Shown: piece by piece, positions 375 to 13,510 of the stretch | Layout: each line of letters starts with the position of its first letter | How positions within the stretch are numbered: the stretch's first letter is position 1 | Source: an uncultured Alphaproteobacteria bacterium | GTDB lineage: Bacteria > Pseudomonadota > Alphaproteobacteria > Rhizobiales > Beijerinckiaceae | Length of the DNA: 64,000 bases | Direction: 5' to 3' | Assembly (NCBI GenBank): GCA_963709185.1 | Contig: CAVPVQ010000029.1 | Location: 1,122-65,121, forward strand | The notes under the pieces: generated by a model | The model's database searches: none | What the model was told of the DNA's origin: nothing | What the model saw: only the letters and a program-made list of their open reading frames with translations | Made by a program: the position numbers and the translations under genes

Positions 375-1013
375 ATGAAAGCTCGCACACAACCTGGACG
401 CACATCGCAATATGCGCGGAAAACGCCGGCTCGCGGGCGTTGTCTGGCGACGCTCCGGCCCGACGGCGCTGAGGCTTCGGGCCAATCATCGCTTGTGCGG
501 TTTCTGGCGGCGGCGGCGGCCGTATCGATGCTGCTCGTTTCGACGGCGCCCGTCCACGCGCAGGCGGGCGGGTGCGAACTCATCCCCGACGACCGCAATC
601 CGCCGGAAAAGATCTTGCGATGCGGCGCGGCGCTGGAGGTCCGCTCCGCGCATCAGACCGACTATCACGCCGTCGATCAGGCCGGGAACGCGCCGCCGAA
701 CGCGATACAACTCGACTCCGGCGCCCTGATGATCGAGTTCCACCCGAGCAAGGGACACAGACACTTCCAGATTCTGACGCCCAACGCGATCGCCGCCGTG
801 CGCGGGACGAAATGGGTCGTCGAAGTCTCGTCCGCGCGCACGTCGACTTTCGTCATCGCCGGAAGGGTCGCCGTTTCGCGCCCGCACGGCGAGCAGACGG
901 TGCTTCTGAGGCCCGGCGAGGGAGCGGACGTCGCTCCGGACGGCGCGCCGATCGTCGTCAAGCGCTGGGCCGCGCCGCGCGTGCAGGCGCTTCTCGCGCG
1001 CTTCGGGCAATAG
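375..1013 (+). CDS. FecR-domain periplasmic protein
   Basis: GGAGGG RBS before ATG 375; signal-like stretch (FLAAAAAVSMLL..AHA); FecR-type motif FQILTPNAIAAVRGTKWVV..STFVIAGRVAV. The start could be GTG 495. Confidence 0.8.
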   Translation: MKARTQPGRTSQYARKTPARGRCLATLRPDGAEASGQSSLVRFLAAAAAVSMLLVSTAPVHAQAGGCELIPDDRNPPEKILRCGAALEVRSAHQTDYHAVDQAGNAPPNAIQLDSGALMIEFHPSKGHRHFQILTPNAIAAVRGTKWVVEVSSARTSTFVIAGRVAVSRPHGEQTVLLRPGEGADVAPDGAPIVVKRWAAPRVQALLARFGQ

Positions 1014-2875
1014 TGCGGCTCAGCGCTCCTTCGCTCGCCAGCCTCATCACCGCCGCCTTTGTCGCGGCGGGCGTTCTGTGGGGCGGATTCCTCGGCGCCG
1101 CGCAGATCTCGGGGGTCGGCTCGTTCCTCGACGGCCTCGAATATCTCACCCTCGACTGGCGTTATGCGCTGGCGGGCCCGAGACCCGCTCCGCGCGGCGT
1201 GGTCGTCGCCGCCATCGACGACGAAATGGTCCATGACGCCGGCGCCTATCCGCTGCCTCGTGGCGTGCTGGCCCGCATCATCCGCGGCCTCGCGGCGCTC
1301 GATCCCCAGGCGATCGCGATCGACATCGCGTTTCTCGACGCCGGTCAGGCCGAGGAGGACAAGCAGCTTGCCGAGGCGCTCCAGTCGACCAGGTCGGTCA
1401 TCGCCGCCATCGGCGTCTTCGACGGCGAGCGCGCGCGGGACCAGCCATGCGGGGCGAACTTGCTGCCCGGCATTCCTCGGCCAACGCGCGTGCTGTGGCC
1501 CACCGCCCCGCTCCGCGATTCCGCGCGATCGGCCCTCGTCAATGTGACGACCGACGCCGGCGGGATCCCGCGGTTCATCCCGATGATCTATTGCTCGGAC
1601 GATGTGGTCGTCCCGTCGTTCGCCCTGGCCGCGGCGTCCATCGCCTTGAGCGCGGAGCCGGTGCTCGGGATCGACGCGCTGAAGCTCGCGGGGAGAGCCA
1701 TCAGCATGGACATCGGCTATCACTTGCCGATCCGCTACTACGGTCCACGCGGCGCGATCCGGCGGTTCAGCGCCGCGCGGATCATCCACGGCGACCTCAA
1801 TCCCGACGACGTGCGCGGCCAGATCGTCATCCTGGGCGCCACGGCGCTGGGCGTCGGCGACACATTCGCCACGCCGTTCGACCGCATCGTGCCGGGGGCC
1901 GAGATTTTCGGCACGGCGATCACCAATCTTCTGGCCGGCGACGGCCTGATCCGGACGGCGCTGGTTCGAGAAATCGACGCGGGCGCGGCGGTCCTGTTGC
2001 CGTCCGTCACGGTCCTGCTGATGGCGATGCGCCGACCGTTCGCCGGATTGGGGCTTGCCGGTCTGCTCTTCGCGCTGTTTCTCGCGCTGGCGTTCGCCGC
2101 CTTTCTCCAGGGCTACTGGTTCAGCGTCGCAATTCCGCTCGCCGCGTCCATACCGGTCGTGCTCGCCTATGGCGCGACGCGGCTGGGGCTGGACCGCTAC
2201 GCCGCCGGCCGCCTGAAAACCGACCGGGCGACCCTGGCGCAGTTCCAGTCTCCGCTGTTGGTCGAGCACATCCTCAACAATCCCAGGTTTCTTGAAAGCC
2301 CGGTGCATCAGGGCGTGGCGGTGGTGTTTCTCGACCTTTCGGGCTTCACCGGCGCAGCCGAGATCCTCGGGCCGCTGTGGACGCGCGATCTGCTCGCAGC
2401 GTTTCAGGCGCTGATCGAAGGCGTCGCGCTCGCCCACGGCGGATTCGTCGTCAGCTTCATGGGCGACGGCGCGATGATCGTCTTCGGTCTGCCGGAGCCG
2501 CGGCCGGACGATGCGTCGCGCGCGCTTGTCGCGATCGGCCGCCTGCGCGAAGCCGTCGCCGCATGGCTGGACGGGCTGCCGTCGGTCGCCCGCGACCGGC
2601 TTCGCGCGCGTATCGGCGGACATTTCGGTCCGGCGGTGGTCTCGCTGCTCGGATCCGCGCACCATCGGCATGTCGCGGCGACCGGCGACACGGTCAATGT
2701 CGCGAGCCGGCTGCTCGAGGTGGCGAAGGAGCGGCGATGCGGCGTCGTGGTCAGCGAGGAGCTTTGCGCCGCGGCCGTTCCGCCGCAATCTTTTCCCGAC
2801 GACGCCGATGTCGTCGCCCTGGAGGTCGGCATTCGCGGGCGCGCGCAACCCTTGCGGATTCGCGCCTGGCGCTGA
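1013..2875 (+). CDS. CHASE2-domain membrane adenylate/guanylate cyclase (class III)
   Basis: GTG start overlaps the fecR TAG; N-terminal TM; CHASE2 (VVVAAIDD, IAIDIAF, PGAEIFGTAITNLL); 3 TMs; cyclase motifs VFLDLSGFT, FMGDGAM, GDTVNVASRL. The track ORF from 572 over-extends the 5' end. Confidence 0.9.
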   Translation: MRLSAPSLASLITAAFVAAGVLWGGFLGAAQISGVGSFLDGLEYLTLDWRYALAGPRPAPRGVVVAAIDDEMVHDAGAYPLPRGVLARIIRGLAALDPQAIAIDIAFLDAGQAEEDKQLAEALQSTRSVIAAIGVFDGERARDQPCGANLLPGIPRPTRVLWPTAPLRDSARSALVNVTTDAGGIPRFIPMIYCSDDVVVPSFALAAASIALSAEPVLGIDALKLAGRAISMDIGYHLPIRYYGPRGAIRRFSAARIIHGDLNPDDVRGQIVILGATALGVGDTFATPFDRIVPGAEIFGTAITNLLAGDGLIRTALVREIDAGAAVLLPSVTVLLMAMRRPFAGLGLAGLLFALFLALAFAAFLQGYWFSVAIPLAASIPVVLAYGATRLGLDRYAAGRLKTDRATLAQFQSPLLVEHILNNPRFLESPVHQGVAVVFLDLSGFTGAAEILGPLWTRDLLAAFQALIEGVALAHGGFVVSFMGDGAMIVFGLPEPRPDDASRALVAIGRLREAVAAWLDGLPSVARDRLRARIGGHFGPAVVSLLGSAHHRHVAATGDTVNVASRLLEVAKERRCGVVVSEELCAAAVPPQSFPDDADVVALEVGIRGRAQPLRIRAWR

Positions 2876-2911
2876 ACGGGTCGGGCGTGTCGCGGTAAAT
2901 CCAAACCGGCG

Positions 2912-2927
2912 TGTTCCCTGAGGAACA
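2912..2927 (+). promoter_or_regulatory. Clr/CRP-type palindromic box TGTTCC-CTGA-GGAACA
   Basis: Perfect 6-4-6 palindrome matching the rhizobial Clr consensus as I recall it (HGTYHC-N4-GRWACA); a second copy at 7620-7635 lies the same distance (94 nt) from its ATG. Confidence 0.7.
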
Positions 2928-3020
2928 GCGCGCCCGGTCGATTTCAACGATCGTGCTGCTGCGAGACGGTCGACCGCGACGAATGTTCGTCCGGACCGCT
3001 CGAAGACAGGAGTAACGATC

Positions 3021-3302
3021 ATGAAAAATCTTGCTGGCTATTCTATCGCCGCCTTCGCCGGCGCCACGATGCTCGCGATGTCCATGAGCCCGGCGTCCGC
3101 CTTCACTCTGTCCGGGCCTTCCCTGGAGCAGCCCGTCGCTTCCGCGCAGATCGACAAGGTCTGGTGGCGGGGCGGCGGCTGGCGGGGCGGATGGGGCTAT
3201 CGCGCATGGGGCTGGCGCCGTCCGGTCTGGGGTTGGACCGGTTACGCGTACTATCCGGGCTATTGCTGGCGCGGCTACTACGGCTACCTCCATTGCAACT
3301 GA
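3021..3302 (+). CDS. Small secreted Gly/Trp/Tyr/Arg-rich protein, 93 aa
   Basis: AGGAG RBS; Sec signal ending ASA; C-terminal WWRGGGWRGGWGY...YCWRGYYGYLHCN low-complexity tail with two Cys. Confidence 0.85.
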   Translation: MKNLAGYSIAAFAGATMLAMSMSPASAFTLSGPSLEQPVASAQIDKVWWRGGGWRGGWGYRAWGWRRPVWGWTGYAYYPGYCWRGYYGYLHCN

Positions 3303-3333
3303 AATCGCGACACGGCGCCGACGTCAGGCGCGA

Positions 3334-3365
3334 GACGGCCGTCGACCTCCAATCCGACGGCCGTC
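3334..3365. terminator. 11-bp perfect hairpin GACGGCCGTCG-N10-CGACGGCCGTC
   Basis: Inverted repeat about 30 nt after the stop of 3021-3302; no U-tract, so it may be an mRNA-stabilising stem instead. Confidence 0.35.
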
Positions 3366-3483
3366 AAACGCCCGCGGCGGGGCCGGGATTCGCAGGCGCG
3401 ACGCGGCGTTGCCGACAACGCCGAGTCGCGGCATAGTGACGTCCGAACCGAAGCTCATGGCTGTCCCGGACAGGCAGGCGCGA

Positions 3484-3978
3484 ATGAGGCTGGTCACCGC
3501 CATCGCCATTCTGGCTCTCGCAGCGGGCGCGTCAGCCTCACTGCCGGCAAGCGCGTTCGCGCAGGATCAACCTGCCACGCCCGACACGGCCTATGTCCCG
3601 AACGTGAGCGATGTGATGGGGCAAACGCAGCTCCGCCATTTCAAGCTCGGCTATGCCGGCGCTCTCGGAAACTGGGCGCTCGCCAACTACGAACTTGGAC
3701 TTGTCGCCGACAGTTTCCACACGACGTCCACACTGTTGGCCGCGCCCAGCGATGCGCGCCTCGCGCAACTGTTGACGCAGGACTCGGCGCCGCCGCTCTC
3801 CGATATCGGCAAGGCGATCGCCGCCGGAAGCAAAGAGGATTTCGGCCGCGCTTTCGAGCGGCTGACCGACGCCTGCAACGCCTGCCACAGCGCCGCGCGG
3901 GTCGGCTTCATCAAAATCAAGTTCCCAACCACCTCGCGCAATTTCCTGTTCAGCAACCAGATCTTTCCCCCGGAATAG
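3484..3978 (+). CDS. Periplasmic monoheme c-type cytochrome, class II-like (C-terminal CXXCH), paralog 1
   Basis: Signal peptide; helical body; CNACH near the C-terminus. Start could also be 3457 or 3409. Confidence 0.75.
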   Translation: MRLVTAIAILALAAGASASLPASAFAQDQPATPDTAYVPNVSDVMGQTQLRHFKLGYAGALGNWALANYELGLVADSFHTTSTLLAAPSDARLAQLLTQDSAPPLSDIGKAIAAGSKEDFGRAFERLTDACNACHSAARVGFIKIKFPTTSRNFLFSNQIFPPE

Positions 3979-4016
3979 CGGCGACGCGTCACGCGCCGCC
4001 ATTCATCGTTGACGCC

Positions 4017-5856
4017 GTGCACGAGACCTCCGCCGATCAGCCCGCCGAAGCGCCCGCCGCGACGCCGCGGCCGATGCTGATCTATGACGGCGATTGCGCA
4101 TTCTGCGGCTACTGGGCGCGCTACTGGCGCAAGCTCACCGGCGAGCGCGTCGAATATCGGCCCTACCAGGACGCCGCCGCGCGGTTTCCCGAGATTTCAG
4201 AGGCCGAATTCCGGCGCGCCGCGCAGTTCATTGCGCCCGACGGACATCGCGCCAGCGGCGCCGAGGCCAGTTTCCTGACCTTGAGCCACGCGCGCGGCAG
4301 GGGATGCTGGCTCGTCCTCTACCGCCATCTGCCCGGCTTCGCCGCGGTCTCGGAGCGGGCTTACGCATTCATCGCCGCGCATCGCTCGGCCTTCTTCCGC
4401 GTCAGCCTGATGCTGTGGGGCGCCGAGCACGCGCCGCCGCGCTACGATCTCGTGTCGTTCTTGTTCCTGCGGCTGTTCGGGCTGATCTACCTCTCGGCGT
4501 TCCTCTCCTTCGCGGTGCAGGCGCAGGGGCTGATCGGCAGCGACGGCGTCCTGCCGCTGACCGATTTCGTCGACGCGCTCGCCGACCGTCTCGGCTCCCA
4601 GCGTTTCTTCCTCGCGCCGATGGTGTTCTGGCTCAACGACAGCGATGGGGCGATTCAGGCGGTTTGCTGGGCCGGCGCCGGGCTATCGCTGCTGCTGGTC
4701 GCCAATCTCGCGCCGCGCCTCAGCCTGCTTCTGCTCTATGCGCTCTATCTCTCGCTGTTCTACGCCGGCCAGACCTTCATGAGCTTCCAGTGGGACACGT
4801 TCCTGCTGGAGACCGGATTTGTCGCGCTGCTGCTGAGCTTCGCCACCGCGCAGGGCGTCTGGCTGCTGCGCTGGTTGCTGTTCCGTTTCATGTTCATGTC
4901 GGGCGTCGTCAAGCTGCTGAGCGGCGACGCCAATTGGTGGGGTCTGTCGGCGCTGTCGAAGCATTTTCTGACCCAGCCGCTGCCGACCCCGCTGGCCTGG
5001 CACGCCGCGCAACTGCCGTCGGACCTGCTGAAATTCGCCACCGGCGCCATGTTCGTCGTCGAGCTGATCCTGCCGTTCCTGATTTTCTTCCCGCGCCGGA
5101 TGCGGTTCCTCTCGGCGTTCGGCATCCTCACGCTGCAGAGCGGCATTCTCCTCACCGGCAATTACAACTGGTTCAATCTGCAGACCATGTTGCTGTGCCT
5201 GCCGCTGTTCGACGACGCGGCGGCGCGCAATATCCTGCCGGGTCCGCTGGTCCGGCTGTCTCCAGCGGGGCGCGGCGAACCACGCGCCGCGACGAGTGGG
5301 CGCGTTCGCGGTCAACGCCCTGGCGCTGCTGCTCGTGTTCTGCAGCCTGACGCTGATGGACCTGCGTTTCGGCGGCGATCCGCCGGCGACGGCGCAGGCG
5401 GTCGACGGCGCGATCGAGCCGCTGCATATCGTCAGCGCCTATGGTCTGTTCGCGGTGATGACCACGCAGCGCGACGAAATCGTCATCGAGGGTTCGAACG
5501 ACGGCGTCGAGTGGCGCGAATACGAATTCCGCTACAAGCCCGGCGATGTCGCGCGCCGCCCGCTCTGGAACATCCCGCATCAGCCGCGGCTCGACTGGCA
5601 GATGTGGTTCGCCGCGCTCGAAGACCCGAGGGATCTGCCGTGGTTTTCACAATTCGTGATCCGGCTGCTGCAGAACGAACCCGCCGTGACGGCGCTGCTG
5701 GAAAAGAACCCTTTTCCGGATCACCCGCCAACCTACGTGCGCGCGCAGTTCTACGAATACACCTACGCCAGCCGTGAGGAAAAGGCGGAAGGCCGGTGGT
5801 GGGACCGCCGGTTGCTGGGCCTGTATTTTCCCGCTGCGCGGCTGAGGGGCAAGTGA
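4017..5856 (+). CDS. DCC1-like thiol-disulfide oxidoreductase (DUF393) fused to a lipase maturation factor (LMF1) family membrane protein; frameshift near 5259
   Basis: IYDGDCAFC (DxxCxxC) N-domain; LMF motifs FQWDTFLLETGF, WLLFRFMFMSGVVKL, TQPLPTPLAW, LTGNYNWFN; C-terminal part (YGLFAVMTT..REYEFRYKPG..PHQPRLDWQMWFAAL) continues in the 5296-5856 frame. Confidence 0.85.
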
Positions 5857-6071
5857 TCGCGTCGTCGGCAAGCGGTCGCCAGGAAACAGCATTTCTCGGA
5901 CCGGCCCGATCGAACAGCGAAGGCCTGCCTTTCGGGGCGCGCCTCACACTTCATGCTCGGGCGAGGCTCACCCGGATCATGGCGCCGGCTCCTTCAGGGA
6001 GCGAATACAAGGGGCCGGCGATACCGGAGCGCCGCGTCGCCGCGGCGCTCCACAGTCGATGGATTCGGCTC

Positions 6072-7526
6072 TCAGTATTTCCCAAGAAGAGCCTTGATCA
6101 TGTTCGAGAGGGGATTGACGCCGGCCGTCTGGGCGGCCCCGCCCGTCAGTCCACCGCCGGCGCTGCCGCCAAGACCAGTGCCAAAACCTGTTTCAGTCGC
6201 GGTGACCGGGTTGACCACGGATGCATTGATGCCGATTTTCCCTGCCCCCGAGAGTCCTCCCGCGCCGAGTATCGCCATGCCGAGATAGCCCCAATCCGTT
6301 GCGATGCCCTGCACGGCGTTGATGTCTCCCGCCGTCAACGGCGGGGCGCCCTGGGTCGGCAGGCCGACGTTGAAAATCGCCGGCACCGAACCGTTGAGCT
6401 GGCTGCCAACCGAACTGGGGTTGGGGTTGTTGGAGCCGAACGGATTGGCGATGATGAAGCTGTTGGTGGCGTTGGCCTGGCTCGTTCCGATGTTGATGGC
6501 GCCGGATCCATTCGCGCCATTGGTCGGAAGCTTGATCACGATCGGCGGCGCCGTCCCGAGCCCGCCGTTGTTGCCCGCGTCGCTCGTGGCGGCGGCGGCC
6601 GTCCATTGCGATTGATTGATCAACGACGCCACTGAGTTGACCGCGCCCAGAGCGCCGCCCGCGCTGAGTCCGCTCTGCGGCGCCGGCTTCGCGTTGGCCG
6701 CCGCTCCCGCGAGCGCTCCCGCCGAGGATTGCGCCGCCGCTATGTTGGCGGCAATCGCGTTGCCGGCGGCTGTGAACGCGTTCTGGGCGTTGGAGACGAA
6801 CATCGACGGCGCGCCGCCGGATGCGCCGCCAATGGCGGCGCCGACCTTGCTCCCCGCCTCGCCCCATCCGAACATTTGCAAGTTGGTGAGGCCGTTGCTC
6901 TGGCTGATGGCGGTCTGGAGATCGGTGACGCTGCTGGTCGAGGACGGAGCGGTCAGGTCGGTGAGGCTCGCCAGCGAGTCCGGAGCGCTGCTCGCGCCGG
7001 TGTAGGGACCGTAGTCGGGCGTCGTCGTGCCCGGCTTGGGAACCGGGATCGGTCCGGTGGCGATGGTCGCCTTGACGTTCGGCGCGGCGAAGGTCGACCC
7101 GCCGGCCGCAAGGCCCGCGGCGGTAGTCACCGGCGTCGTAGAGATATGCAACGGGGTGATCGTGGTGTTGGCCGAAAGGCCTGCCGCCGTGGTCACCGGC
7201 GTCGTGGAAATATGCAGCGGGGTGATGGTGGTGTTGGCCTGCAGGCCGGCCGCGGTGGTCACCGGCGTGGTGGAAATGTGGAACGGGGTGATCGTGGTGT
7301 TGGCCTGCAGGCCCGCCGCCGTGGTCACCGGCGTGGTGGAAATGTGGAACGGGGTGATCGTGGTGTTGGCTTGCAGGCCCGCCGCCGTGGTCACTGGCTT
7401 CGAGGACACCGGCTGGCCGAGATAGTTCAGCGGCGTCGTGTTGAGCATCTGCGCCGCGTGGGCGCCGGCGAGGCCAGCGAGGCTAAAGACGAGGGCGATC
7501 GCCGTGGTCTTGGTGAAGCGGTTCAT
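6072..7526 (-). CDS. Secreted Thr/Ala/Gly/Ser/Asn-rich protein with 22-aa tandem repeats
   Basis: AGGAG RBS before ATG 7526; signal peptide MNRFTKTTAIALVFSLAGLAGAHA; about 484 aa, no Cys, no recognisable domain. Confidence 0.85.
   Translation of the reverse strand: MNRFTKTTAIALVFSLAGLAGAHAAQMLNTTPLNYLGQPVSSKPVTTAAGLQANTTITPFHISTTPVTTAAGLQANTTITPFHISTTPVTTAAGLQANTTITPLHISTTPVTTAAGLSANTTITPLHISTTPVTTAAGLAAGGSTFAAPNVKATIATGPIPVPKPGTTTPDYGPYTGASSAPDSLASLTDLTAPSSTSSVTDLQTAISQSNGLTNLQMFGWGEAGSKVGAAIGGASGGAPSMFVSNAQNAFTAAGNAIAANIAAAQSSAGALAGAAANAKPAPQSGLSAGGALGAVNSVASLINQSQWTAAAATSDAGNNGGLGTAPPIVIKLPTNGANGSGAINIGTSQANATNSFIIANPFGSNNPNPSSVGSQLNGSVPAIFNVGLPTQGAPPLTAGDINAVQGIATDWGYLGMAILGAGGLSGAGKIGINASVVNPVTATETGFGTGLGGSAGGGLTGGAAQTAGVNPLSNMIKALLGKY
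7110..7397 (-). repeat. 66-bp (22-aa) tandem repeat, 4 full copies plus a partial: PVTTAAGLQANTTITP(F/L)HISTT
   Basis: accggcgtgg recurs at 7261 and 7327 (period 66); the copies differ mostly at synonymous positions. Confidence 0.95.
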
Positions 7527-7619
7527 GGTCGTTGCTCCTGTTAGCGAGAGGCCCGGACGATCATTCGTCCCCGTCAACTTTCTCGTGGAAGCATCATCGC
7601 CGTCCGCCCCGTCCGGCGC

Positions 7620-7635
7620 TGTTCCCGGGGTGACA
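7620..7635 (-). promoter_or_regulatory. Second Clr/CRP-type box TGTCAC-CCCG-GGAACA in the divergent promoter
   Basis: Matches HGTYHC-N4-GRWACA; 94 nt from ATG 7526 and 67 nt from divergent ATG 7702. Confidence 0.7.
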
Positions 7636-7701
7636 GCCCGGCGCGCCGACTTCGCCTACCGTCATGGGCATCGAACGGCTCAACCCGACGGAGTGAACGC
7701 C

Positions 7702-8589
7702 ATGCCGCGCCAAGCCAGCCTCATCGCCAGCGTCTCGACAGTCCTCGCCGCGACCCTCCTCGCCTCCCTCGCCCACGCCAGCGAGGCCGCTCAGCCCCTC
7801 GACCATTCGCTGGCGCTGCCGGGACAACTGGTGCGCGTCGCCGACGCCAACGCGGCGACCTGCGTCAAAGCCCCCGCCCCGGTCGATCTGAAGGCGCTCG
7901 GCGACGCGATCAAGGCGCAGATCGTCCATCGGGCGCGGCTGGAGGCCGAGCTGCAGGGGCGCGGCGACATCGAACTCCCGGCGCCGCTGCAAGGCCAGCA
8001 GGGCGTCGAGCCAATCGCCGGCGCGCTGCGCGACGAACAGGCGGTGTTCGCCGCCCGCAAGGACGCCCTGAGCGCCCAGGTCGCCTCGCTGACCCAGGAC
8101 AAGGGGTTCTCGCAGCGCGAGATCGAGCTGACCACCGCCAAGGAGGCGGCGCTCGCCCGCCAGGAGGCGCTCGCCCAGAAGGACCTCGACAAGATCGGCG
8201 GCCTGCTCAGCGAGGGGCTGGTTTCCGGACCGCAGAAGCTCGCGCTGGAGCAGAACATCCTGCAGGCCGAGGCCAGCCGGCTCGACGTCAAGCTGGCGAC
8301 GCTGCGCGCGCAGCAGGAGATCAGCAAGATCGACCGCAACATCGTCGATATTCGCAACCAGTGGCGCAACGATTCGCTGGCCGAGTTCAACAAGACCCAG
8401 GCGGCGCTAATCGACCTCGCGCAGCAGGCGCGCGCCGCCGAGGCCGCCGCCGCCACGCCCGCGGCCGCGCCGGCCGAATGCGGCGAGGCGAAGGACGCGC
8501 TCTACATCATCCTGCGCGGCCCCGGCGGCGCCATGCAGGCCTTCCCCGTCGCCGCCGGCGGGCCGGCGATCGCGCGCAACGGACAATGA
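7702..8589 (+). CDS. Periplasmic long coiled-coil protein resembling the ExoF/HlyD-AprE alpha-hairpin, without a Poly_export domain
   Basis: GGAG RBS; signal peptide; RARLEAEL..EQAVFAARKDALSAQVASL..GLVS..LEQNILQAEASRLDVKL heptads; short C-terminal YIILRG remnant. Confidence 0.65.
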   Translation: MPRQASLIASVSTVLAATLLASLAHASEAAQPLDHSLALPGQLVRVADANAATCVKAPAPVDLKALGDAIKAQIVHRARLEAELQGRGDIELPAPLQGQQGVEPIAGALRDEQAVFAARKDALSAQVASLTQDKGFSQREIELTTAKEAALARQEALAQKDLDKIGGLLSEGLVSGPQKLALEQNILQAEASRLDVKLATLRAQQEISKIDRNIVDIRNQWRNDSLAEFNKTQAALIDLAQQARAAEAAAATPAAAPAECGEAKDALYIILRGPGGAMQAFPVAAGGPAIARNGQ

Positions 8590-8726
8590 CCGAACCGGCG
8601 CACGCCAAGCCGACTTCGTCTCCGACGGTGACCCAAGCCCGCCGCGGCGGTTCAGCATTGCCGGGAGCGCCGGGCCGGGGCAGTATAATCGCCCCGCCCC
8701 TGTCGATCCCCGGGAAGCCGGTTCAC

Positions 8727-9212
8727 ATGCGACACGCCAAGGCCATCGCCGCGCTGCTCTGCTCGGCCCTCGCCGTCGCCGTGCTGTCGGCGCACACGCA
8801 AGCTCAGGAACAGTCCGCGCAATCCAGTTCGGCCTATGCGCCCAAGGTCGCCGACATCATGGGCCAGACGCAACTGCGACACTTCAAGCTGTGGTTCGCC
8901 GGCAGCGCGGGCAATTGGGCGCTCGCGAGCTACGAGCTGGGGCAGATCAGGGGCGGTTTCGACGCGGCGGCGAGGCTCTACCACACACCTGGCGGCGCGC
9001 CGTCCGCGCGAGGGTTGAAGGACGACAGCGGGCCTCCCGTGGCCGATGTCGCCAAGGCTGTCGCGGCCGGAAACAAAGAAGATTTCATCAAGGCCTTCGA
9101 GCGGCTGACGATGGCCTGCAACGCCTGCCATCAGGCCGCCCATGTCGGATTCATCAGGATCAGGGTGCCGACCTCGTCGCCGTTCACCGACCAGTCTTTT
9201 CCGCCGGAGTGA
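8727..9212 (+). CDS. Periplasmic monoheme c-type cytochrome, paralog 2
   Basis: Signal peptide from ATG 8727; perfect TATAAT at 8684-8689; CNACH; shares MGQTQLRHFKL, GNWALAxYELG, KEDF, AFERLT, VGFI and FPPE with 3484-3978. Confidence 0.75.
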   Translation: MRHAKAIAALLCSALAVAVLSAHTQAQEQSAQSSSAYAPKVADIMGQTQLRHFKLWFAGSAGNWALASYELGQIRGGFDAAARLYHTPGGAPSARGLKDDSGPPVADVAKAVAAGNKEDFIKAFERLTMACNACHQAAHVGFIRIRVPTSSPFTDQSFPPE

Positions 9213-9355
9213 CGGCAAGATCGCGGACGCCCTGCGTCGCCGACGCGGCACGCGCCATTCCTTCCTTGACACGGGCCGGCCGGGGCGCCGAGTATCCATC
9301 AACGCCGTCGCGCCCGGTCTGGCCAGCGAACCGGCGCGGGAGGAGCGGCATAGCG

Positions 9356-10900
9356 ATGGGCGTTTCCGCGGTCGCCAACGCCTGCGCCGACCTTGTCGAT
9401 CGCAATGTCGCCGAGGGGCGCGGCGACAAGCCGGCGTTCCTTGAAGCGGGGCGCGCCCTCACCTACGGCGCGCTGCAGGCGCAGACCTGCCGTTTCGCGC
9501 GCCTGCTCGCGCGCCTCGGCCTGCGGCGCGAGGACCGCATCGCCATGGCGATGCTCGACACGATCGAATTTCCGGTGGTTTTTCTTGGCGCAATCCGCGC
9601 CGGAATCGTGCCGATCCCGCTCAACACGTTGCTGACCACCGAACAATATTCCTACATGCTCGCCGACTCGCGCGCCAAGGCGCTGGTCGTGTCGGCCGCG
9701 CTGTGGCCGGCGCTGGAGCCCGCCCTCGCCCACGCGCCGGACCTCGTCCATGTGATCCTCGCCGACGGCGAAGCGCCCGCCCAAACGATTGCGCTCGACC
9801 GGGCGCTCGAAGGCGAGTCCGCCGACTTGACGCTCGCGCCGACCCATCCCGACGAGCCCTGCTTCTGGCTCTATTCCTCGGGTTCGACCGGCGCGCCCAA
9901 GGGCGTGCGCCACGTCCATTCGAGCATGAGCGATACGGCGCGGACCTTCGGGCGGCAGGTGCTGCAAATTCGCGAAGACGACCTCGTCTTCTCGGCCGCC
10001 AAGCTGTTTTTCGCCTACGGGCTCGGCAACGCGTTGTCATTTCCGCTGCACGTCGGCGCGACCGCCTATCTCCTCGCGGCGCGGCCGACGCCCGGCGCCG
10101 TGTTCGACACGCTCGAAAAATCCGACGCGACGATCTTCTGCGGCGTGCCCACCCTGCTCGCCGCCATGCTCAACGATCGCGGTCTCGCCGGGCGACGCGC
10201 CGGGCCGCGCCTGCGCCTCTGCACATCGGCGGGCGAAGCGTTGCCGGCGCATATCGGCCTGGCCTGGCGCGCCCGCTTCGGCGTCGACATCCTCGATGGC
10301 GTCGGGTCGACCGAAATGCTGCATATCTTCCTCGCCAACGCGCCTGGCGACATCGTCTATGGCGCGTCGGGCCGGGCGGTGCCGGGGTATGAATTGCGCC
10401 TGCTCGATGAGAAGATGCAGCCGACGGCGGACGGCGAAATCGGCGAACTCTATGTGCGCGGCCCCTCGGCCGGCGACGGCTACTGGAACCAGCGCGAAAA
10501 GAGCCGCGCGACGTTTCAGGGCGAGTGGACGCGCACCGGCGACAAATACACGCGCGACGCGACCGGCCTCTACACCTATTGCGGACGCGCCGACGACATG
10601 TTCAAGGTCGGCGGCGTCTGGGTCTCGCCATTCGAAGTGGAGACCGCGCTCGCCGGCCATCCCGCCGTTCTCGAGGCGGCGGTCGTTCCCGCCGAGGACG
10701 GGGACGGCCTGTTGAAACCCAAGGCCTTCATCGTTCTCAAGGACGGCGCTTCGCGCGAGGGTCTCGTCGAGGCGTTGCAGGCGCATGTCAGGGCGAGCGT
10801 CGGCGCATGGAAATATCCGCGCTGGATCGAAATCGTCGACGCTCTGCCCAAGACGGCGACCGGCAAGATCCAGCGCTTCAAATTGCGCGAGCGGGCCTGA
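9356..10900 (+). CDS. Benzoate-CoA ligase family protein
   Basis: GGAGGAG RBS; FWLYSSGSTGAPKG, DGVGSTEMLHIF, GRADDMFKVGG, LPKTATGKIQRF; next to boxC/boxB. Confidence 0.9.
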   Translation: MGVSAVANACADLVDRNVAEGRGDKPAFLEAGRALTYGALQAQTCRFARLLARLGLRREDRIAMAMLDTIEFPVVFLGAIRAGIVPIPLNTLLTTEQYSYMLADSRAKALVVSAALWPALEPALAHAPDLVHVILADGEAPAQTIALDRALEGESADLTLAPTHPDEPCFWLYSSGSTGAPKGVRHVHSSMSDTARTFGRQVLQIREDDLVFSAAKLFFAYGLGNALSFPLHVGATAYLLAARPTPGAVFDTLEKSDATIFCGVPTLLAAMLNDRGLAGRRAGPRLRLCTSAGEALPAHIGLAWRARFGVDILDGVGSTEMLHIFLANAPGDIVYGASGRAVPGYELRLLDEKMQPTADGEIGELYVRGPSAGDGYWNQREKSRATFQGEWTRTGDKYTRDATGLYTYCGRADDMFKVGGVWVSPFEVETALAGHPAVLEAAVVPAEDGDGLLKPKAFIVLKDGASREGLVEALQAHVRASVGAWKYPRWIEIVDALPKTATGKIQRFKLRERA

Positions 10901-11686
10901 GTGGCGGGCCTGCCCGGCGCCGGCTTGATCGATCTCGGCGCCGCCCGGCTGGAATATCGACTGTGGGGGCCGCCGCCCGACGCGGCGCCGACATTGGCGT
11001 TGCTGCATGAGGGGCTTGGCTGCGCCGGCGGGTGGGGCGAATTTCCGGAGCGCCTCGCGGCGGCGACGGGCTGCGCAATCTTCGCCTATTCGCGCGCCGG
11101 CTACGGCGGCTCGAGTTCGATTGCGTTGCCGCGGCCGCTTGACTATATGCAGCGCGAAGCGGTGGAGACCTTGCCGCGCGTTCTCGACGCGATCGGCTTT
11201 GCGCGCGGCGCGCTGATCGGCCATTCCGACGGCGCCTCGATCGCCGCTGTCTGCGCCGGATCGGTCGGCGACCATAGAGTGCGCGCAGTTTCGCTGATCG
11301 CGCCACATTTCATCGTCGAGGACATCACGATCGCGGCGATCGAGCGCGCGCGGGCCGCCTATCAGGCAGGCGATCTGCGCGCCAGGCTGGCGCGTTGGCA
11401 CGCCGACGTCGACGTCGCGTTCCGCGGCTGGAATGACGCGTGGCTCGACCCGAAATTCCGCGCCTTCGACATCACCGGGCATCTTCCCGCGGTGGCAATT
11501 CCCGTGCAGATCATCCAGGGCGGCGCGGACCCTTACGGCGGCGAACGGCAAATCGACGCCGCGGTCGCGGCCTTGCGCGCGCCGCCCGATCTCGTGCGCC
11601 TGCCGGGGATCGGCCACGCGCCGCACCGGGAGGCGCTGGCGGAGACGGTCGAGGCGATTCGACGCTTCGCCATGCCGCTGCTCTGA
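10901..11686 (+). CDS. Alpha/beta hydrolase (box-cluster associated)
   Basis: LLHEGLG oxyanion motif; GHSDG nucleophile elbow; GHAPH; GTG abuts the ligase stop. Confidence 0.85.
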   Translation: MAGLPGAGLIDLGAARLEYRLWGPPPDAAPTLALLHEGLGCAGGWGEFPERLAAATGCAIFAYSRAGYGGSSSIALPRPLDYMQREAVETLPRVLDAIGFARGALIGHSDGASIAAVCAGSVGDHRVRAVSLIAPHFIVEDITIAAIERARAAYQAGDLRARLARWHADVDVAFRGWNDAWLDPKFRAFDITGHLPAVAIPVQIIQGGADPYGGERQIDAAVAALRAPPDLVRLPGIGHAPHREALAETVEAIRRFAMPLL

Positions 11687-11792
11687 TCGCGCGCGCGCCT
11701 TCCTGGCGCGCCCAGCATAGTCGCGCTGGCCCGCGCTTTGCTCTAGGATCGCTGCGCGCGATGGCGCGCGACATGCGGAGGGTAGCGGTGCG

Positions 11793-13482
11793 ATGGCGCA
11801 GGAGGTGCGAAAGCTCGCCAACGGCGCGACCCGCGTGGATTTTGCGACCGACCCTTCGCGCTATCGGCACTGGAAACTGACGATCGACGGCGCGATCGCC
11901 ACGTTGAGCCTGGACGTCGACGAGTCCGGCGGCCTGTTCGAGGGCTATGCGCTGAAGCTCAACTCGTATGATCTTGGCGTCGATATCGAACTCGCCGACG
12001 CCGTGCAGCGATTGCGCTTTGAACACCCGGCGGTCAAGGTGGCGGTCCTGCGCTCGGCCAAGCCGCGCGTGTTCTGCGCGGGCGCCAACATCCGCATGCT
12101 GGCCGGCGCGGAACACCCGCACAAGGTCAATTTCTGCAAGTTCACCAACGAGACGCGCAATGCGATGGAGGACGCCGCCGCCTGCTCGGATCTGCGCTTC
12201 CTCTGCGTGGTGAACGGCAGCGCGGCGGGCGGCGGCTACGAACTGGCGCTGGCGAGCGATCATATAATGCTGGTCGACGACGGATCCTCCGCCGTCTCGC
12301 TGCCTGAACTGCCGTTGCTGGCGGTGCTGCCCGGTACCGGCGGACTCACCCGCCTCGTCGACAAGCGCAAGGTGCGGCGCGACCACGCCGACGTGCTGTG
12401 CACGCTCGAGGAAGGCGTCAAGGGCCAGCGCGCGCTCGACTGGCGGCTCGTCGACGAACTCGCGCCGGCCTCGCAGCTCAGCGAGCGCGTCGCCGCGCGC
12501 GCCAACGCGCTGGCGGCGGGCTCGCGCCGCGCCGGGCCGCCGCGCGGCGTCGCGCTTCCCCCGCTCGTTCGGCGTTTCGCCGACGACGGGGTGCGCTATC
12601 CCAACGTCTCGGTCGACGTCGACCGCGCCGCCCGTGTCGCGACGATCACGCTGCGCGCGCCCGAAGCGCCGCCGCCCGGCGGCGTCGACGAGATGATCGC
12701 CCAAGGCGCGGCGTTCTGGCCGCTGCGGCTGGCGCGCGAACTCGACGACGCGATCCTGCACTTGCGCAACAACGAATATGACATCGGCGTGCTGGTCTTC
12801 AAATCGGCGGGCGATCCGGCGCTGGTCGCGCTGCACGACGCGTTTCTCGAAACCCATCGCGACCACTGGCTGGTCCATGAGACGCGCCACTACTGGAAGC
12901 GGGTCCTCAAGCGCATCGACGTGACGTCGCGCAGCCTGGTGGCGGTCGTCGAGCCCGGATCGTGTTTTGCCGGCTTCCTCGCCGAGATCGTATTCGCCGC
13001 CGATCGCGCCTACATGCTGATCGGCCAGATCGACGGCGACGACCGTCCGCCGGCGGCCCTCACGCTCACCGCCGGCAATTTCGGCCCCTATCCCATGGCC
13101 AACGGCCTCACGCGGCTCGCCACGCGCTTTCTCGGCGAGCCGCGATCGCTCGATGACGCGGCGGCGCGGCTCGGGCAGGCGATCGACGCGCGCCAGGCCG
13201 AGGCGCTCGGTCTCGTCACCTTCGCGCTCGACGACATCGACTGGAGCGACGAATTGCGGCTGTTCATGGAGGAGCGCGCGAGCTTTTCGCCGGACGCCCT
13301 GACCGGCATGGAGGCGAACCTGCGCTTTGCCGGACCGGAGACCATGGAGAGCAAGATTTTCGCCCGCCTCACCGCCTGGCAGAACTGGATCTTCCAGCGG
13401 CCCAACGCGGCGGGCGAGGACGGCGCGTTGCGTCGCTACGGAACCGGGCGCAAGCCCAGCCTTCGACCTGCGGCGCGTTTGA
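11793..13482 (+). CDS. boxC: 2,3-epoxybenzoyl-CoA dihydrolase BoxC; +1 base near 13461
   Basis: YRHWKL, LKLNSYDLGVDIELADA, tandem crotonase folds, ETMESKIFARLTAWQNWIFQRPNA. Removing one C at 13460-13461 gives the typical ...KPSFDLRRV* end (TGA 13480-13482); the raw ORF runs to 13514. Confidence 0.9.
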
Positions 13483-13510
13483 GCGGGCGGGAGCGCCCGA
13501 GGAGATTGCG

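What the first reader, a model, noticed from the sequence alone, without database searches (positions are those of the whole stretch)
6072..7526. Secreted 484-aa protein with 22-aa Thr-rich tandem repeats and no known domain
The repeat PVTTAAGLQANTTITPFHISTT occurs 4 times plus a partial, with synonymous divergence between copies, indicating selection on the peptide. The alternating beta-prone T/I/F/H segment and the Gly/Asn/Ala-rich remainder suggest a beta-solenoid, functional amyloid or O-glycosylated surface fibre. The repeat is not the curlin motif.
Basis: partly seen in the sequence, partly recalled or inferred. Interest (0 to 1): 0.7.

Follow-up and report, generated by a model that had tools for sequence, protein, structure and literature searches.

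The report
Exported Thr-repeat orphan protein, Clr-regulated
This is a real gene for an exported, threonine-rich repeat protein with no recognisable domain, from a tiny family seen only in soil metagenomes; its promoter suggests it is switched on by a cyclic-nucleotide (Clr/Crp-type) regulator, but what the protein does is still unknown.

Summary
Window 7526..6072 (minus strand) is a monocistronic 484-aa gene with a Shine-Dalgarno site, a Sec signal peptide (AHA|AQ), native codon bias and a terminator hairpin. It carries four 22-aa Thr-rich units plus an 8-aa partial; most differences between copies are synonymous. Pfam and NCBIfam find nothing.

Three things are new. First, it belongs to a very small orphan family: about 30 representatives among 1.84 billion, all unannotated metagenome proteins. 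The family shares a signal peptide, an LNTTPLNxxGQPV motif, NTT-containing repeats of varying period (13 to 23 aa) and an invariant core, TTAAGL...PNVKATIATGPIPVPKPG.

Second, the gene sits behind a conserved leader of about 125 nt. Its palindrome TGTCACCCCGGGAACA matches the S. meliloti Clr box exactly, and by inference is centred at about -41.5. The same leader precedes a 93-aa exported peptide gene beside a FecR and CHASE2-cyclase pair in the window. It also precedes 15 further genes on metagenome contigs, two of which carry a Clr homologue. The protein is therefore probably an exported output of cNMP/Clr signalling, analogous to SMc02178.

Third, the 22-mer has an LRR-like residue order that beats permutation controls. 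However, Pfam LRR models, AlphaFold (pLDDT 40 to 59) and Foldseek do not support a fold. Solenoid, amyloid and glycoprotein readings remain untested. Interest is moderate.

The parts
6072..7526 (-). Coding sequence, 484 aa plus stop; exported orphan repeat protein
   Evidence: ORF list and translation. GC3 is 0.847. An identical product is called on ENA contig L007. The 3 nt differences from L007 are all synonymous third positions.
7455..7526 (-). Sec-type signal peptide, aa 1-24 (MNRFTKTTAIALVFSLAGLAGAHA, predicted cleavage AHA|AQ)
   Evidence: Sequence inspection. It is the strongest hydrophobic segment and is conserved across the family. No Cys, so it is not a lipoprotein.
7407..7445 (-). 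Family N-terminal motif LNTTPLNYLGQPV (aa 28-40)
   Evidence: N29, T30, P32, L33, G37 and P39 are invariant in alignment A1. The same motif is itself the tandem unit in other members.
7134..7397 (-). Four full 22-aa (66-nt) tandem units, aa 44-131; an 8-aa partial fifth unit follows at 7110-7133
   Evidence: Tandem Repeats Finder; unit-by-unit comparison; LRR-like register.
6999..7133 (-). Conserved family core, aa 132-176 (PVTTAAGLAAGGSTFAAPNVKATIATGPIPVPKPGTTTPDYGPYT)
   Evidence: T131, T134, A136, A137, G138, L139, P149, N150, V151, A153, G158 and P163 are invariant. This block has the highest AlphaFold confidence in the N-terminal model (pLDDT about 81).
6228..6290 (-). Gly-rich hydrophobic segment, aa 413-433 (GYLGMAILGAGGLSGAGKIGI); possible glycine-zipper or membrane-interacting element
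   Evidence: Second-highest hydropathy peak. Comparable G/A-rich hydrophobic C-terminal stretches occur in P0004, P0005, P0009 and P0011. Inference only.
6084..6113 (-). Predicted amphipathic C-terminal helix, aa 472-481 (...NPLSNMIKALLGKY)
   Evidence: Helix in the AlphaFold model, local pLDDT about 67. Similar tails occur in P0003, P0006, P0007, P0014 and P0019.
7535..7539 (-). Shine-Dalgarno sequence AGGAG, 8 nt upstream of the ATG
   Evidence: Sequence; GAG is invariant in the leader alignment.
7545..7569 (-). Conserved 25-nt leader motif GACGAATGATCGTCCGGGCCTCTCG, containing the small palindrome/hairpin GACGA-ATGA-TCGTC
   Evidence: It occurs in 17 leader copies. RNA structure is unproven: no compensatory pairs, and the fold is no more stable than shuffled sequence.
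7593..7598 (-). -10-like hexamer GATGAT (A at -11 and T at -7 invariant in 8 leaders). The inferred transcription start is near 7586, giving a 5'UTR of about 60 nt (7527-7586).
   Evidence: Leader alignment A2. The positions are inferred, not measured. The generic sigma-70 scan finds no -35/-10 pair, as expected for an activator-dependent promoter.
7620..7635 (-). Clr-type (Crp cluster G) binding box TGTCACCCCGGGAACA, centred about 41.5 bp upstream of the inferred start and 74.5 bp upstream of the divergent gene's ATG
   Evidence: Exact match to HGTYHCNNNNGRWACA. Only 2 sites occur in the 64 kb (3 strand matches), against 0.17 matches expected by chance. The consensus comes from PMC5498481 and PMC10127613.
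6026..6051 (-). GC-rich terminator-like hairpin GGAGCGCCGCG-GCGA-CGCGGCGCTCC, 21 nt after the stop codon
   Evidence: Sequence. The 71-nt fold is -34.4 kcal/mol, z = -2.5. There is no T-run, so the simple terminator scan misses it.
2912..3302 (+). Second copy of the cassette: Clr box TGTTCCCTGAGGAACA (2912-2927), leader motif (2978-3002), and a gene for a 93-aa exported W/G/R/Y-rich peptide (3021-3302)
   Evidence: The peptide belongs to a 12-member cluster of metagenome hypotheticals.
375..2875 (+). FecR-domain exported protein (375-1013), translationally coupled to a CHASE2 plus class III nucleotidyl cyclase (GTG 1013-2875). This is the presumed cNMP source for the Clr-box genes.
   Evidence: Pfam: FecR 2.2e-9, CHASE2 2.1e-41, Guanylate_cyc 1.2e-11. 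The junction overlaps by 1 nt. The same trio plus a Clr homologue lies beside family genes in L004.

Best explanation
The gene encodes a Sec-exported, Cys- and Arg-free, low-complexity envelope or extracellular protein. It belongs to a very small, uncharacterised family found so far only in soil and peat metagenome contigs.

The family's build is: a signal peptide; an LNTTPLNxxGQPV motif; a fast-evolving block of NTT-containing tandem repeats (here 4.4 units of 22 aa); an invariant core TTAAGL-x6-TFAxPNVKATIATGPIPVPKPG; and a Gly/Ala/Asn/Ser-rich tail that ends in a Gly-rich hydrophobic stretch and a short amphipathic helix.

The gene is a single transcription unit. Its promoter is predicted to be activated by a Clr-type cAMP/cGMP receptor protein bound at a canonical Clr box overlapping the -35 region (class II geometry). 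The cyclic nucleotide would come from CHASE2-type receptor cyclases such as the FecR-coupled one 4.5 kb away. The protein is therefore best read as an exported output of an envelope-sensing cyclic-nucleotide circuit, playing the role SMc02178 plays at the S. meliloti cyaD1/clr locus.

Within the protein, the Thr-rich repeats most likely form an extended, beta-rich spacer of adjustable length with a weak LRR-like periodicity. That spacer would present the conserved core and C-terminal part within the envelope.

Shown: the gene, its export signal, the repeats, family membership, the Clr-box match, the conserved leader, and the synteny with the cyclase, FecR and Clr genes. Inferred: the transcription start, activation by Clr, the final location of the protein, and the structural role of the repeats.
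For: - Gene reality: Shine-Dalgarno site, GC3 of 0.847, only synonymous differences from a 99.6% identical contig, and a terminator hairpin.
- Family: 6 word-indexed homologues and about 30 representatives in 1.84 billion. All are hypothetical proteins without a Pfam domain.
- Invariant motifs and variable repeat periods of 13, 17, 21, 22 and 23 aa at the same position.
- Clr box: an exact match to HGTYHCNNNNGRWACA. The only two sites in 64 kb both lie about 95-110 nt upstream of exported-protein genes, against 0.17 matches expected by chance. The consensus and Clr-box-to-start distances of -42 to -76 come from PMC5498481 and PMC10127613.
- Leader: 78% mean identity over 8 copies in front of proteins whose mature parts are unrelated. 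There are 17 copies in all. All 14 copies with enough upstream sequence carry the Clr core GTNNCNNNNGNNAC at -64 to -67 from the leader motif.
- Regulator: L004 and L005 carry a Crp-like gene next to family genes. The L004 protein's best PDB match is S. meliloti Clr (7PZA, E = 2e-44), aligned end to end with an identical SRPKVN recognition motif.
- Cyclase: FecR plus CHASE2 cyclase in the window and in L004. The S. meliloti cyaD1 locus likewise holds clr, a FecR-domain gene and the periplasmic Clr target smc02178.
- Repeats: beta bridges recur in every unit of the AlphaFold model, and the residue order is LRR-like beyond composition and periodicity.
Against: - No Clr/Crp homologue is present in the 64-kb window, so the regulator is assumed to be encoded elsewhere in the genome.
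- No transcript data exist: no RNA runs were found. The transcription start, the -41.5 spacing and expression itself are unverified.
- The leader is conserved well beyond the Clr box, and I cannot explain that. Its hairpin shows no compensatory changes, and the target's 5'UTR folds no better than shuffled sequence.
- Structure predictions are of low confidence (pLDDT 39.7 and 59.1) and have no Foldseek match.
- A Sec signal alone takes the protein only as far as the periplasm of a diderm cell. No dedicated secretion or anchoring system is adjacent.
The analogy rests only on position and regulation.
Confidence: 0.55

Rival explanations
1. The repeat block is a short, divergent leucine-rich-repeat (SDS22/internalin-type, 22-residue) solenoid with Thr in the Asn-ladder position. 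The protein would then be a ligand- or protein-binding receptor or adhesin module in the envelope.
For: phmmer against the PDB aligns aa 39-140 to the 22-residue LRRs of C. tepidum Roco (5il7, E = 5e-9) and InlH (0.028). The family profile also picks up an LRR_4 Roco protein, P0027. In column-permutation controls that keep composition and period, only 1/300, 2/300 and 0/300 permutations reach the real score. The register I7xxF10xI12xxT15xV17 mimics LxxLxLxxNxL, and the 23-aa units of P0002, P0009 and P0017 fit it with one inserted residue.
Against: No Pfam LRR model matches even at E<=10, for the whole protein or for the repeat region alone. AlphaFold gives no LRR horseshoe and Foldseek finds no match. 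There are only 4.4 units and no capping motifs. Two core positions are Asn and Ala. Sister proteins have 13-, 17- and 21-aa units in the same place, which is hard to reconcile with a fixed LRR geometry. Repeat-against-repeat E-values are inflated.
Confidence: 0.2
2. The protein is an intrinsically disordered, mucin-like exported protein. Its conserved NTT (N-x-T) and Thr/Ser/Pro-rich repeats would be glycosylation sites, and the protein would form a hydrated coat or matrix component.
For: The NTT triplet is the only element shared by all repeat types in the family (periods 13-23 aa). The protein has 10 N-x-S/T sequons, 13% Thr and 9% Ser, almost no charged residues, and no Cys or Arg. AlphaFold predicts most of the chain as unstructured.
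Against: No glycosyltransferase or oligosaccharyltransferase gene lies next to the gene in the window or in the related loci. The repeats are under peptide-level constraint at hydrophobic positions as well as at NTT. There is no direct evidence of modification.
Confidence: 0.12
3. The protein is a functional amyloid or self-assembling fibre subunit, analogous to curli or Fap, that contributes to a biofilm matrix.
For: It is exported and Cys-free, has a Gly/Ala/Asn/Ser/Gln-rich composition, and has imperfect repeats with alternating beta-prone residues.
Against: There is no match to curlin, Fap or any other amyloid family. The gene is monocistronic, with no nucleator, chaperone or outer-membrane channel gene beside it in the window or in the homologous loci. 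Repeat types are not conserved across the family.
Confidence: 0.06
4. The protein is a competition factor. The G/A-rich hydrophobic C-terminal part would act as a glycine-zipper, membrane-inserting (bacteriocin-like) module, delivered with an N-terminal repeat 'pro' region.
For: There is a Gly-rich hydrophobic segment at aa 413-433. P0028 has sub-threshold Gly-zipper_Omp and Lysostaphin_N matches. One copy of the same leader precedes a peptide with a double-glycine-type leader, in L014. P0005 lies beside RHS and CdiI-like genes.
Against: All of these matches are below threshold. No immunity gene or exporter is adjacent. The hydropathy of the segment is modest (1.3). C-terminal parts are poorly conserved across the family.
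Confidence: 0.05
5. It is not a functional gene: a chance ORF or an assembly artefact in a GC-rich repeat.
For: GC-rich DNA yields long spurious ORFs. Several overlap this one. In one near-identical assembly (L006) the gene is broken into three pieces.
Against: Only this frame shows native GC3 together with a Shine-Dalgarno site, a signal peptide and homologues. Relative to the window, L006 has 12 gap openings over the aligned 4.5 kb, typical of assembly error, whereas L007 and the window agree exactly at the protein level. Divergence is synonymous both between repeat copies and between strains. Four soil metagenome runs cover most of the gene, in contig fragments.
Confidence: 0.02

Closest known systems
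SMc02178 of Sinorhizobium meliloti (Clr-activated periplasmic protein of unknown function at the cyaD1/clr locus)
   Same: It is an exported protein with a cleavable signal peptide and no recognisable domain. Its promoter carries a functional palindromic Clr box. It is encoded beside a CHASE2 receptor cyclase, a FecR-domain protein and clr (PMC5498481, PMC4222275). The window and L004 show the same set of neighbours and the same box.
   Different: The organism is an uncultured soil bacterium with no known symbiosis. The window lacks clr itself. Nothing indicates that SMc02178 has these Thr-rich repeats, or that its promoter shares the extended conserved leader.
22-residue leucine-rich repeats (SDS22/internalin class; e.g. 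C. tepidum Roco LRR 5il7, InlH 1h6u)
   Same: The 22-aa period and the order of hydrophobic positions (LxxNxxIxxFxIxxTxVxxAxG against LxxLxxLxxLxLxxNxIxxIxx) are shared, and the similarity is significant relative to permuted controls.
   Different: No Pfam LRR hit. Thr, Asn and Ala occupy three canonical positions. There are only 4.4 units. No LRR fold is predicted. Paralogues have other repeat periods.
Curli CsgA / Pseudomonas FapC functional amyloids
   Same: These are Sec-exported, Cys-poor, Gly/Asn/Gln/Ser/Ala-rich proteins with imperfect repeats.
   Different: There is no curlin or Fap motif and no family match. There is no dedicated csg- or fap-type operon. The repeat sequence and period are different.
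CRP/CAP class II activator-dependent promoters (regulatory architecture)
   Same: A 16-bp palindrome is centred about 41.5 bp upstream of the inferred start. There is no recognisable -35 element, and a -10 hexamer with invariant A(-11) and T(-7) is retained.
   Different: The half-sites are Clr-type (GTNNC...GNNAC) rather than TGTGA...TCACA. The transcription start has not been mapped. In addition, a roughly 60-nt, almost invariant transcribed leader of unknown role follows.

Membership tests
Orphan 'NTT-repeat / PNVKATIATGP' exported protein family (defined here) | N-terminal Sec signal peptide followed by LNT[TV]PLNxxG[QK]PV | tested here: met
   aa 1-40. N29, T30, P32, L33, G37 and P39 are invariant in A1.
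Orphan 'NTT-repeat / PNVKATIATGP' exported protein family (defined here) | Block of NTT-containing tandem repeats between the N-terminal motif and the core | tested here: met
   NTT occurs at aa 54, 76, 98 and 120 (spacing 22). Other members show spacings of 13, 17, 21 and 23.
Orphan 'NTT-repeat / PNVKATIATGP' exported protein family (defined here) | Invariant core TTAAGL-x6-[TS]F[AS]xPN[VI]KATIATGPIxVPKxG | tested here: met
   aa 134-166. It matches P0001, P0003, P0004, P0006, P0007, P0009, P0010, P0014, P0019 and P0026. Profile E-values run down to 1e-165.
Clr (Crp cluster G) regulon of Alphaproteobacteria - promoter-level membership | Clr binding site matching HGTYHCNNNNGRWACA (core GTNNCNNNNGNNAC) in the upstream region | tested here: met
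   TGTCACCCCGGGAACA at 7620-7635. 0.17 matches are expected by chance in the window. Consensus.
Clr (Crp cluster G) regulon of Alphaproteobacteria - promoter-level membership | Box placed 42-76 bp upstream of the transcription start | tested here: inconclusive
   The -10-like nATnnT lies 29.5 bp downstream of the box centre, which implies -41.5. No transcription-start or RNA data are available.
Clr (Crp cluster G) regulon of Alphaproteobacteria - promoter-level membership | A Clr orthologue encoded in the same genome | tested here: inconclusive
   None in the 64-kb window. L004 and L005 carry a Crp-like regulator next to family genes. The L004 protein, the one compared with the PDB, matches Clr 7PZA at 2e-44 and shares the SRPKVN helix. 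The rest of this genome could not be searched.
Clr (Crp cluster G) regulon of Alphaproteobacteria - promoter-level membership | cAMP/cGMP- and Clr-dependent transcription | not testable with these tools
   This needs reporter fusions or a gel-shift assay.
Leucine-rich repeat (Pfam LRR clan; 22-residue SDS22/internalin class) | Match to curated LRR profile models | tested here: not met
   No LRR family at E<=10 for the whole protein or for aa 39-142 alone. The true LRR protein P0027 scores 5.8e-66 in the same call.
Leucine-rich repeat (Pfam LRR clan; 22-residue SDS22/internalin class) | Conserved segment LxxLxLxxNxL repeated with a 20-30 aa period | tested here: inconclusive
   IxxFxIxxTxV recurs 4 times with a period of 22. 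It scores 47.6 bits against Roco (1/300 permutations as good) and 187.6 bits against P0027 (0/300). Thr replaces the ladder Asn, and other family members use other periods.
Leucine-rich repeat (Pfam LRR clan; 22-residue SDS22/internalin class) | Curved solenoid fold with a parallel beta-sheet | tested here: not met
   AlphaFold N-terminal model: pLDDT 59, pTM 0.39. Foldseek finds 0 PDB matches. This is weak evidence because the model is of low confidence.
Curli / Fap functional amyloid | Curlin (Sx5QxGxGNxAx3Q) or FapC repeat and family profile match | tested here: not met
   No Pfam or NCBIfam hit. The motif is absent from the sequence.
Curli / Fap functional amyloid | Dedicated operon with nucleator, chaperone and outer-membrane secretion channel | tested here: not met
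   The gene is monocistronic. Its neighbours are an LMF1/DCC1 fusion and a 295-aa coiled-coil exported protein. The homologous loci show none either.
Sec-dependent exported proteins (signal peptidase I substrates) | Positively charged n-region, hydrophobic h-region, AxA cleavage motif, no lipobox Cys | tested here: met
   MNRFTK / TTAIALVFSLAGLAG / AHA|AQ. This segment has the highest hydropathy peak. There are 0 Cys. It was judged by rule because no predictor was available.

The most novel reading that the evidence does not exclude
The NTT-repeat proteins are a previously unrecognised class of exported fibre/solenoid (or glycosylated) envelope proteins. The roughly 125-nt unit of Clr box, leader and signal peptide is a portable expression cassette. 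It would wire a whole set of unrelated low-complexity exported proteins (Thr-repeat, Gly/His-rich, Trp/Arg-rich, and a GG-leader peptide) to CHASE2-cyclase/cNMP signalling in uncultured soil bacteria. The near-invariant transcribed leader would be a new cis-regulatory element, either an RNA or an operator, acting on top of Clr.
Probability: 0.2. Interest if true: 0.7.

Novelty: new variant of a known kind. Interest (0 to 1): 0.45.

Why it matters
The outputs of alphaproteobacterial cAMP/cGMP-Clr signalling are mostly exported proteins of unknown function. SMc02178, which limits secondary legume infection, is the classic example. This locus shows the same circuit logic (FecR, CHASE2 cyclase, Clr box, exported orphan protein) in free-living soil bacteria. 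It also shows one strongly conserved promoter-leader cassette placed in front of many different low-complexity exported proteins. That yields a defined, testable regulon and a set of candidate effector proteins for asking what CHASE2-cyclase signalling does to the cell envelope. The protein is also a clean example of a repeat block that keeps its position and a three-residue motif (NTT) while changing period and sequence. That pattern points to a spacer or modification-site role rather than a fixed fold.

Tried and rejected
- Two scans of 185,579 species-representative genomes, one with the family alignment and one with the protein, found no relative. The source genome itself was not found either, so I could not assign a taxon.
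- The plasmid collection gave no match.
- Rfam gave no family for the leader, either at E<=1 over 1-12,000 or at gathering thresholds over the whole window. The two microRNA 'hits' are chance. There are no tRNAs.
- AlphaFold on the full-length protein with 7 sequences gave pLDDT 39.7. The N-terminal 156 aa with 21 sequences gave pLDDT 59.1. Foldseek against the PDB found nothing.
- I considered the longer TTG start at 7577 (501 aa) and rejected it. It would bury the signal peptide and overlap the conserved leader. The ATG has the Shine-Dalgarno site and is the start called elsewhere.
- I considered an EcfG/ECF-type promoter (GGAAC-N16-17-CGTT, or GAAC...CGTC). By inspection of the leader alignment the spacings do not fit.
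- RNA structure in the leader is unsupported: RNAalifold finds no compensatory pairs, and the target's UTR is no more stable than shuffled sequence.
- Repeat-number variation: three 99.4-100% identical assemblies carry the same 4.4 units, and Logan contigs from four soil runs show no joints.
- Expression could not be checked because no RNA runs are available.
- I looked for a Clr gene in the window and found none.
- The precomputed HH_AprE label on the divergent neighbour was not reproduced by my own Pfam scan.
Full report
**1. The observation**

The minus-strand ORF 7526..6072 gives a 484-aa product from an ATG, with AGGAG 8 nt upstream. A longer TTG start at 7577 exists, but I reject it (section 4). 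The frame has GC3 = 0.847, matching clearly real neighbours (0.85-0.92). Overlapping ORFs in other frames show the inverted pattern typical of shadow frames.

The identical 484-aa protein is called on an ENA soil-metagenome contig (L007, 99.6% identical DNA). The only three nucleotide differences in the coding sequence are synonymous third positions. A second assembly (L006, 99.4%) has the gene split. Relative to the window it has 12 gap openings over the aligned 4.5 kb, so this is assembly error.

Tandem Repeats Finder reports a 66-nt unit, 4.5 copies, at 7111-7406.

- At the peptide level there are four full 22-aa units (aa 44-131).
- Two units are identical, one carries F->L, and one carries F->L plus Q->S.
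- An 8-aa start of a fifth unit merges into a conserved core.
- 11 codons vary among the four copies: 9 synonymously and 2 with an amino-acid change.

The N-terminus, MNRFTKTTAIALVFSLAGLAGAHA|AQ, is a textbook Sec signal peptide. It was judged by rule and carries the strongest hydropathy peak. The mature chain has no Cys and no Arg, and only 18 charged residues in 460. A 12-bp GC hairpin follows the stop codon (6026-6051; -34.4 kcal/mol, z = -2.5).

**2. Domain and family searches**

Pfam and NCBIfam return nothing at E<=10. The word-indexed search of 5.8 billion proteins finds six relatives. An exhaustive profile search of 1.84 billion cluster representatives finds only 30 at E<=1e-3. One of these is a fragment of this same protein, and one is a genuine LRR protein. 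None of the 14 family members I scanned has a Pfam domain, and the sources label the relatives 'hypothetical' or leave them unnamed. Two scans of 185,579 species-representative genomes found no relative. Sequencing runs that hold the sequence are all soil or unspecified metagenomes.

The family has a clear build:

- a conserved signal peptide;
- the motif LNT[TV]PLNxxG[QK]PV;
- a repeat block;
- an invariant core, TTAAGL-x6-TFAxPNVKATIATGPIPVPKPG;
- a variable tail, which may be G/A/N/S-rich with a Gly-rich hydrophobic stretch and a short amphipathic C-terminal helix, G/A-rich and short, or Q/N-rich.

The repeat block differs greatly between members. Periods of 13, 17, 21, 22 and 23 aa occur, and the number of copies differs widely between members. 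Every repeat type keeps an NTT triplet.

**3. The repeat and LRRs**

phmmer against PDB sequences aligns aa 39-140 to the 22-residue LRRs of the Chlorobaculum Roco protein (E = 5e-9) and InlH (0.028). Repeat-against-repeat E-values are inflated, so I ran a control. I permuted the 22 columns of the unit identically in all copies, which keeps composition and period, and re-scored 300 permutations. Only 1, 2 and 0 of them reached the real score against Roco, InlH and P0027 respectively.

The register is L1xxN4xxI7xxF10xI12xxT15xV17xxA20xG22. In other words, IxxFxIxxTxV sits where LRRs have LxxLxLxxNxL. The 23-aa units of P0002, P0009 and P0017 fit this register with one inserted residue.

Against this:

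- Pfam LRR models are silent even on the isolated repeat region, while P0027 scores 5.8e-66 in the same call.
- AlphaFold gives pLDDT 39.7 for the full protein and 59.1 for aa 25-180. It places 2-3 short beta bridges in each unit but forms no recognisable fold.
- Foldseek finds no PDB match.
- The 13-, 17- and 21-aa repeats of sister proteins cannot share an LRR geometry.

I treat the LRR likeness as a lead, not as membership.

**4. The upstream region is the most informative part**

tblastn matches between the window and the homologue contigs ran upstream of the start codons. Aligning eight upstream regions shows a leader of about 125 nt with 78% mean column identity. That is higher than the 39% mean column identity of the seven aligned proteins. 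These eight regions come from the target, a 93-aa gene at window 3021..3302, and six genes on L001, L004 and L005.

The leader contains, in order:

- a 16-bp palindrome;
- a variable stretch of about 20 nt;
- a -10-like nATnnT with invariant A and T;
- an almost invariant ACGAGAACGGTCGACGGAGACGAATGTTCGTCCGGACCTCTCG;
- ACAGGAG;
- the ATG.

The target's palindrome, TGTCACCCCGGGAACA (7620-7635), and the second one, TGTTCCCTGAGGAACA (2912-2927), are exact matches to the S. meliloti Clr-box consensus HGTYHCNNNNGRWACA. They are the only two sites in the 64 kb, where 0.17 matches are expected by chance (consensus quoted in PMC5498481 and PMC10127613). The box centre lies 29.5 bp upstream of the -10-like hexamer. 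This implies about -41.5, which sits at the near end of the -42 to -76 range reported for Clr-activated promoters. This position is inferred, not measured.

A 25-nt piece of the leader, searched exactly in JGI metagenome contigs, hit 10 contigs. Together with the window, L001 and L005 this makes 17 leader copies. All 14 copies with at least 80 nt of upstream sequence carry the Clr core GTNNCNNNNGNNAC at -64 to -67 from the motif. The downstream ORFs are mostly Sec-signal proteins with NTT repeats. They also include Gly/His-rich 96- and 112-aa proteins, the Trp/Gly/Arg-rich 93-aa peptide, and one peptide with a double-glycine-type leader. Logan contigs from three of the four soil runs examined hold a further divergent copy of the leader.

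**5. Cyclic-nucleotide context**

Upstream of the 93-aa gene, the window encodes a FecR-domain exported protein (375-1013). It is translationally coupled to a CHASE2 plus class III cyclase (1013-2875). L004 has a FecR gene, a CHASE2 cyclase and a Crp-like regulator beside three or four leader-bearing genes. L005 has the regulator as well. The L004 regulator's best PDB match is S. meliloti Clr (7PZA/7PZB, E = 2e-44; the next transcription factor scores 6e-23). The alignment runs end to end, and the SRPKVN recognition-helix motif is identical.

In S. meliloti the cyaD1 locus holds clr, the CHASE2 cyclase cyaD1, the FecR-domain gene smc02177, and smc02178. The last is a Clr-box-driven, experimentally periplasmic protein without recognisable features. 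The architecture here is the same. The window itself has no Clr gene.

**6. Interpretation**

The best-supported reading is an exported output protein of a CHASE2-cyclase -> cNMP -> Clr circuit, belonging to a new, very small family. The repeat block has a variable period and copy number, a fixed position, a conserved NTT, and beta-prone alternation. It most likely acts as an extended spacer of adjustable length, possibly a coil or a modification-site array, that carries the invariant core and C-terminal part.

The rival readings are ranked as follows:

- a genuine LRR-like binding solenoid (0.2);
- a glycosylated, disordered, mucin-like protein (0.12);
- a functional amyloid (0.06), given no partner genes and no motif;
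- a glycine-zipper, bacteriocin-like factor (0.05);
- a non-gene (0.02).

**7. What remains unexplained**

- Why is the transcribed leader nearly invariant? Its small hairpin (GACGA-AUGN-UCGUC) shows only one-sided G.U changes, and the target's UTR folds no better than shuffled sequence (z = +0.65). An RNA structure is therefore unproven, and a DNA operator or a sequence-specific RNA-binding site is equally possible.
- There is no expression evidence, no taxonomic assignment, and no test of homology to SMc02178.

**8. Verdict**

Its structural guesses remain open. The added value is the regulatory and family context. Novelty: a new variant of a known kind, namely Clr-regulon exported orphan proteins. 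Interest is moderate (0.45).

Noticed in passing
window 2912-3302 (+): A 93-aa exported peptide (MKNLAGYS...; mature part WWRGGGWRGGWGYRAWGWRRPVWGWTGYAYYPGYCWRGYYGYLHCN), extremely rich in Trp, Gly, Arg and Tyr. It sits behind a second perfect Clr box and the same leader. It belongs to a 12-member cluster of metagenome 'hypothetical proteins'.
   Followed up: partly
window 3457-3978 (+) and 8727-9212 (+): Two paralogous exported proteins (55% identical, E = 6e-56), each with a CxxCH (ACNACH) haem-c-type motif and no Pfam match. One lies 154 nt downstream of the 93-aa Clr-box gene. The other lies on the far side of the target's divergent 295-aa neighbour. This hints at a local duplication.
   Followed up: partly
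window about 5260 (gene 4017-5856, +): The DCC1-like/LMF1/LMF1_C fusion gene is frameshifted in the window, which has an extra G at 5260 compared with L007. In L007 the gene is an intact 790-aa ORF. This is either an assembly indel or a recent pseudogene.
   Followed up: partly
window 7702-8589 (+): A divergently transcribed 295-aa exported coiled-coil protein whose ATG lies 74.5 bp from the centre of the same palindromic Clr box, so it may be co-regulated. The collection's precomputed label is PF25994 HH_AprE, but my own Pfam scan did not reproduce it.
   Followed up: partly
window about 9300-14962 (+): Aerobic benzoyl-CoA (box) pathway genes: an AMP-binding CoA ligase, an alpha/beta hydrolase, an enoyl-CoA hydratase-family (BoxC-like) protein, and a PaaA/PaaC-family protein that a source names benzoyl-CoA 2,3-dioxygenase component B. 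These appear unrelated to the finding.
   Followed up: no
window 37394-38677 (+): A second class III nucleotidyl-cyclase catalytic domain in the window (tblastn with the L004 cyclase, E = 4e-6).
   Followed up: no
L014 about 150-220 (-) (Ga0187855_10172431): The same Clr-box leader precedes a 56-aa ORF, MNMNTAYENETRELTFEEMEKISGG|ETLNEF..., which looks like a double-glycine-leader (bacteriocin/RiPP-type) peptide. The regulon may therefore include secreted peptides.
   Followed up: no
L004 8631-8921 (-) and L005 1012-1350 (-): Leader-bearing genes for 96- and 112-aa exported Gly/His/Phe-rich then Arg/Asp-rich proteins (GGGGFGGGGFGGGHGFGG...RGDRGDDRRRDD). These are another low-complexity cargo of the same cassette.
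   Followed up: partly
L001 11060-16929 (-): The homologue P0005 lies next to a run of RHS/YD-repeat genes and a faint CdiI-like gene. This is a polymorphic-toxin neighbourhood not seen in the window.
   Followed up: no
P0023 and P0028 (no locus fetched): The 13-aa unit NTTPVNTFGQPVT also occurs as a long tandem array in proteins with a different, non-family N-terminus (...LEALESRTLLT / ...EEREMLS). In P0028 there is also a sub-threshold glycine-zipper C-terminus. The unit may be an independent module that spreads beyond this family.
   Followed up: no
window 7495-7541, Logan contigs of runs X1, X2 and X4: Contigs that match only the Shine-Dalgarno and early signal-peptide region (4 mismatches) and then diverge into another copy of the leader (reverse complement GAGACGAATGTTCGTCCGGGCC...). 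At least one more paralogous cassette therefore exists in the same communities.
   Followed up: no
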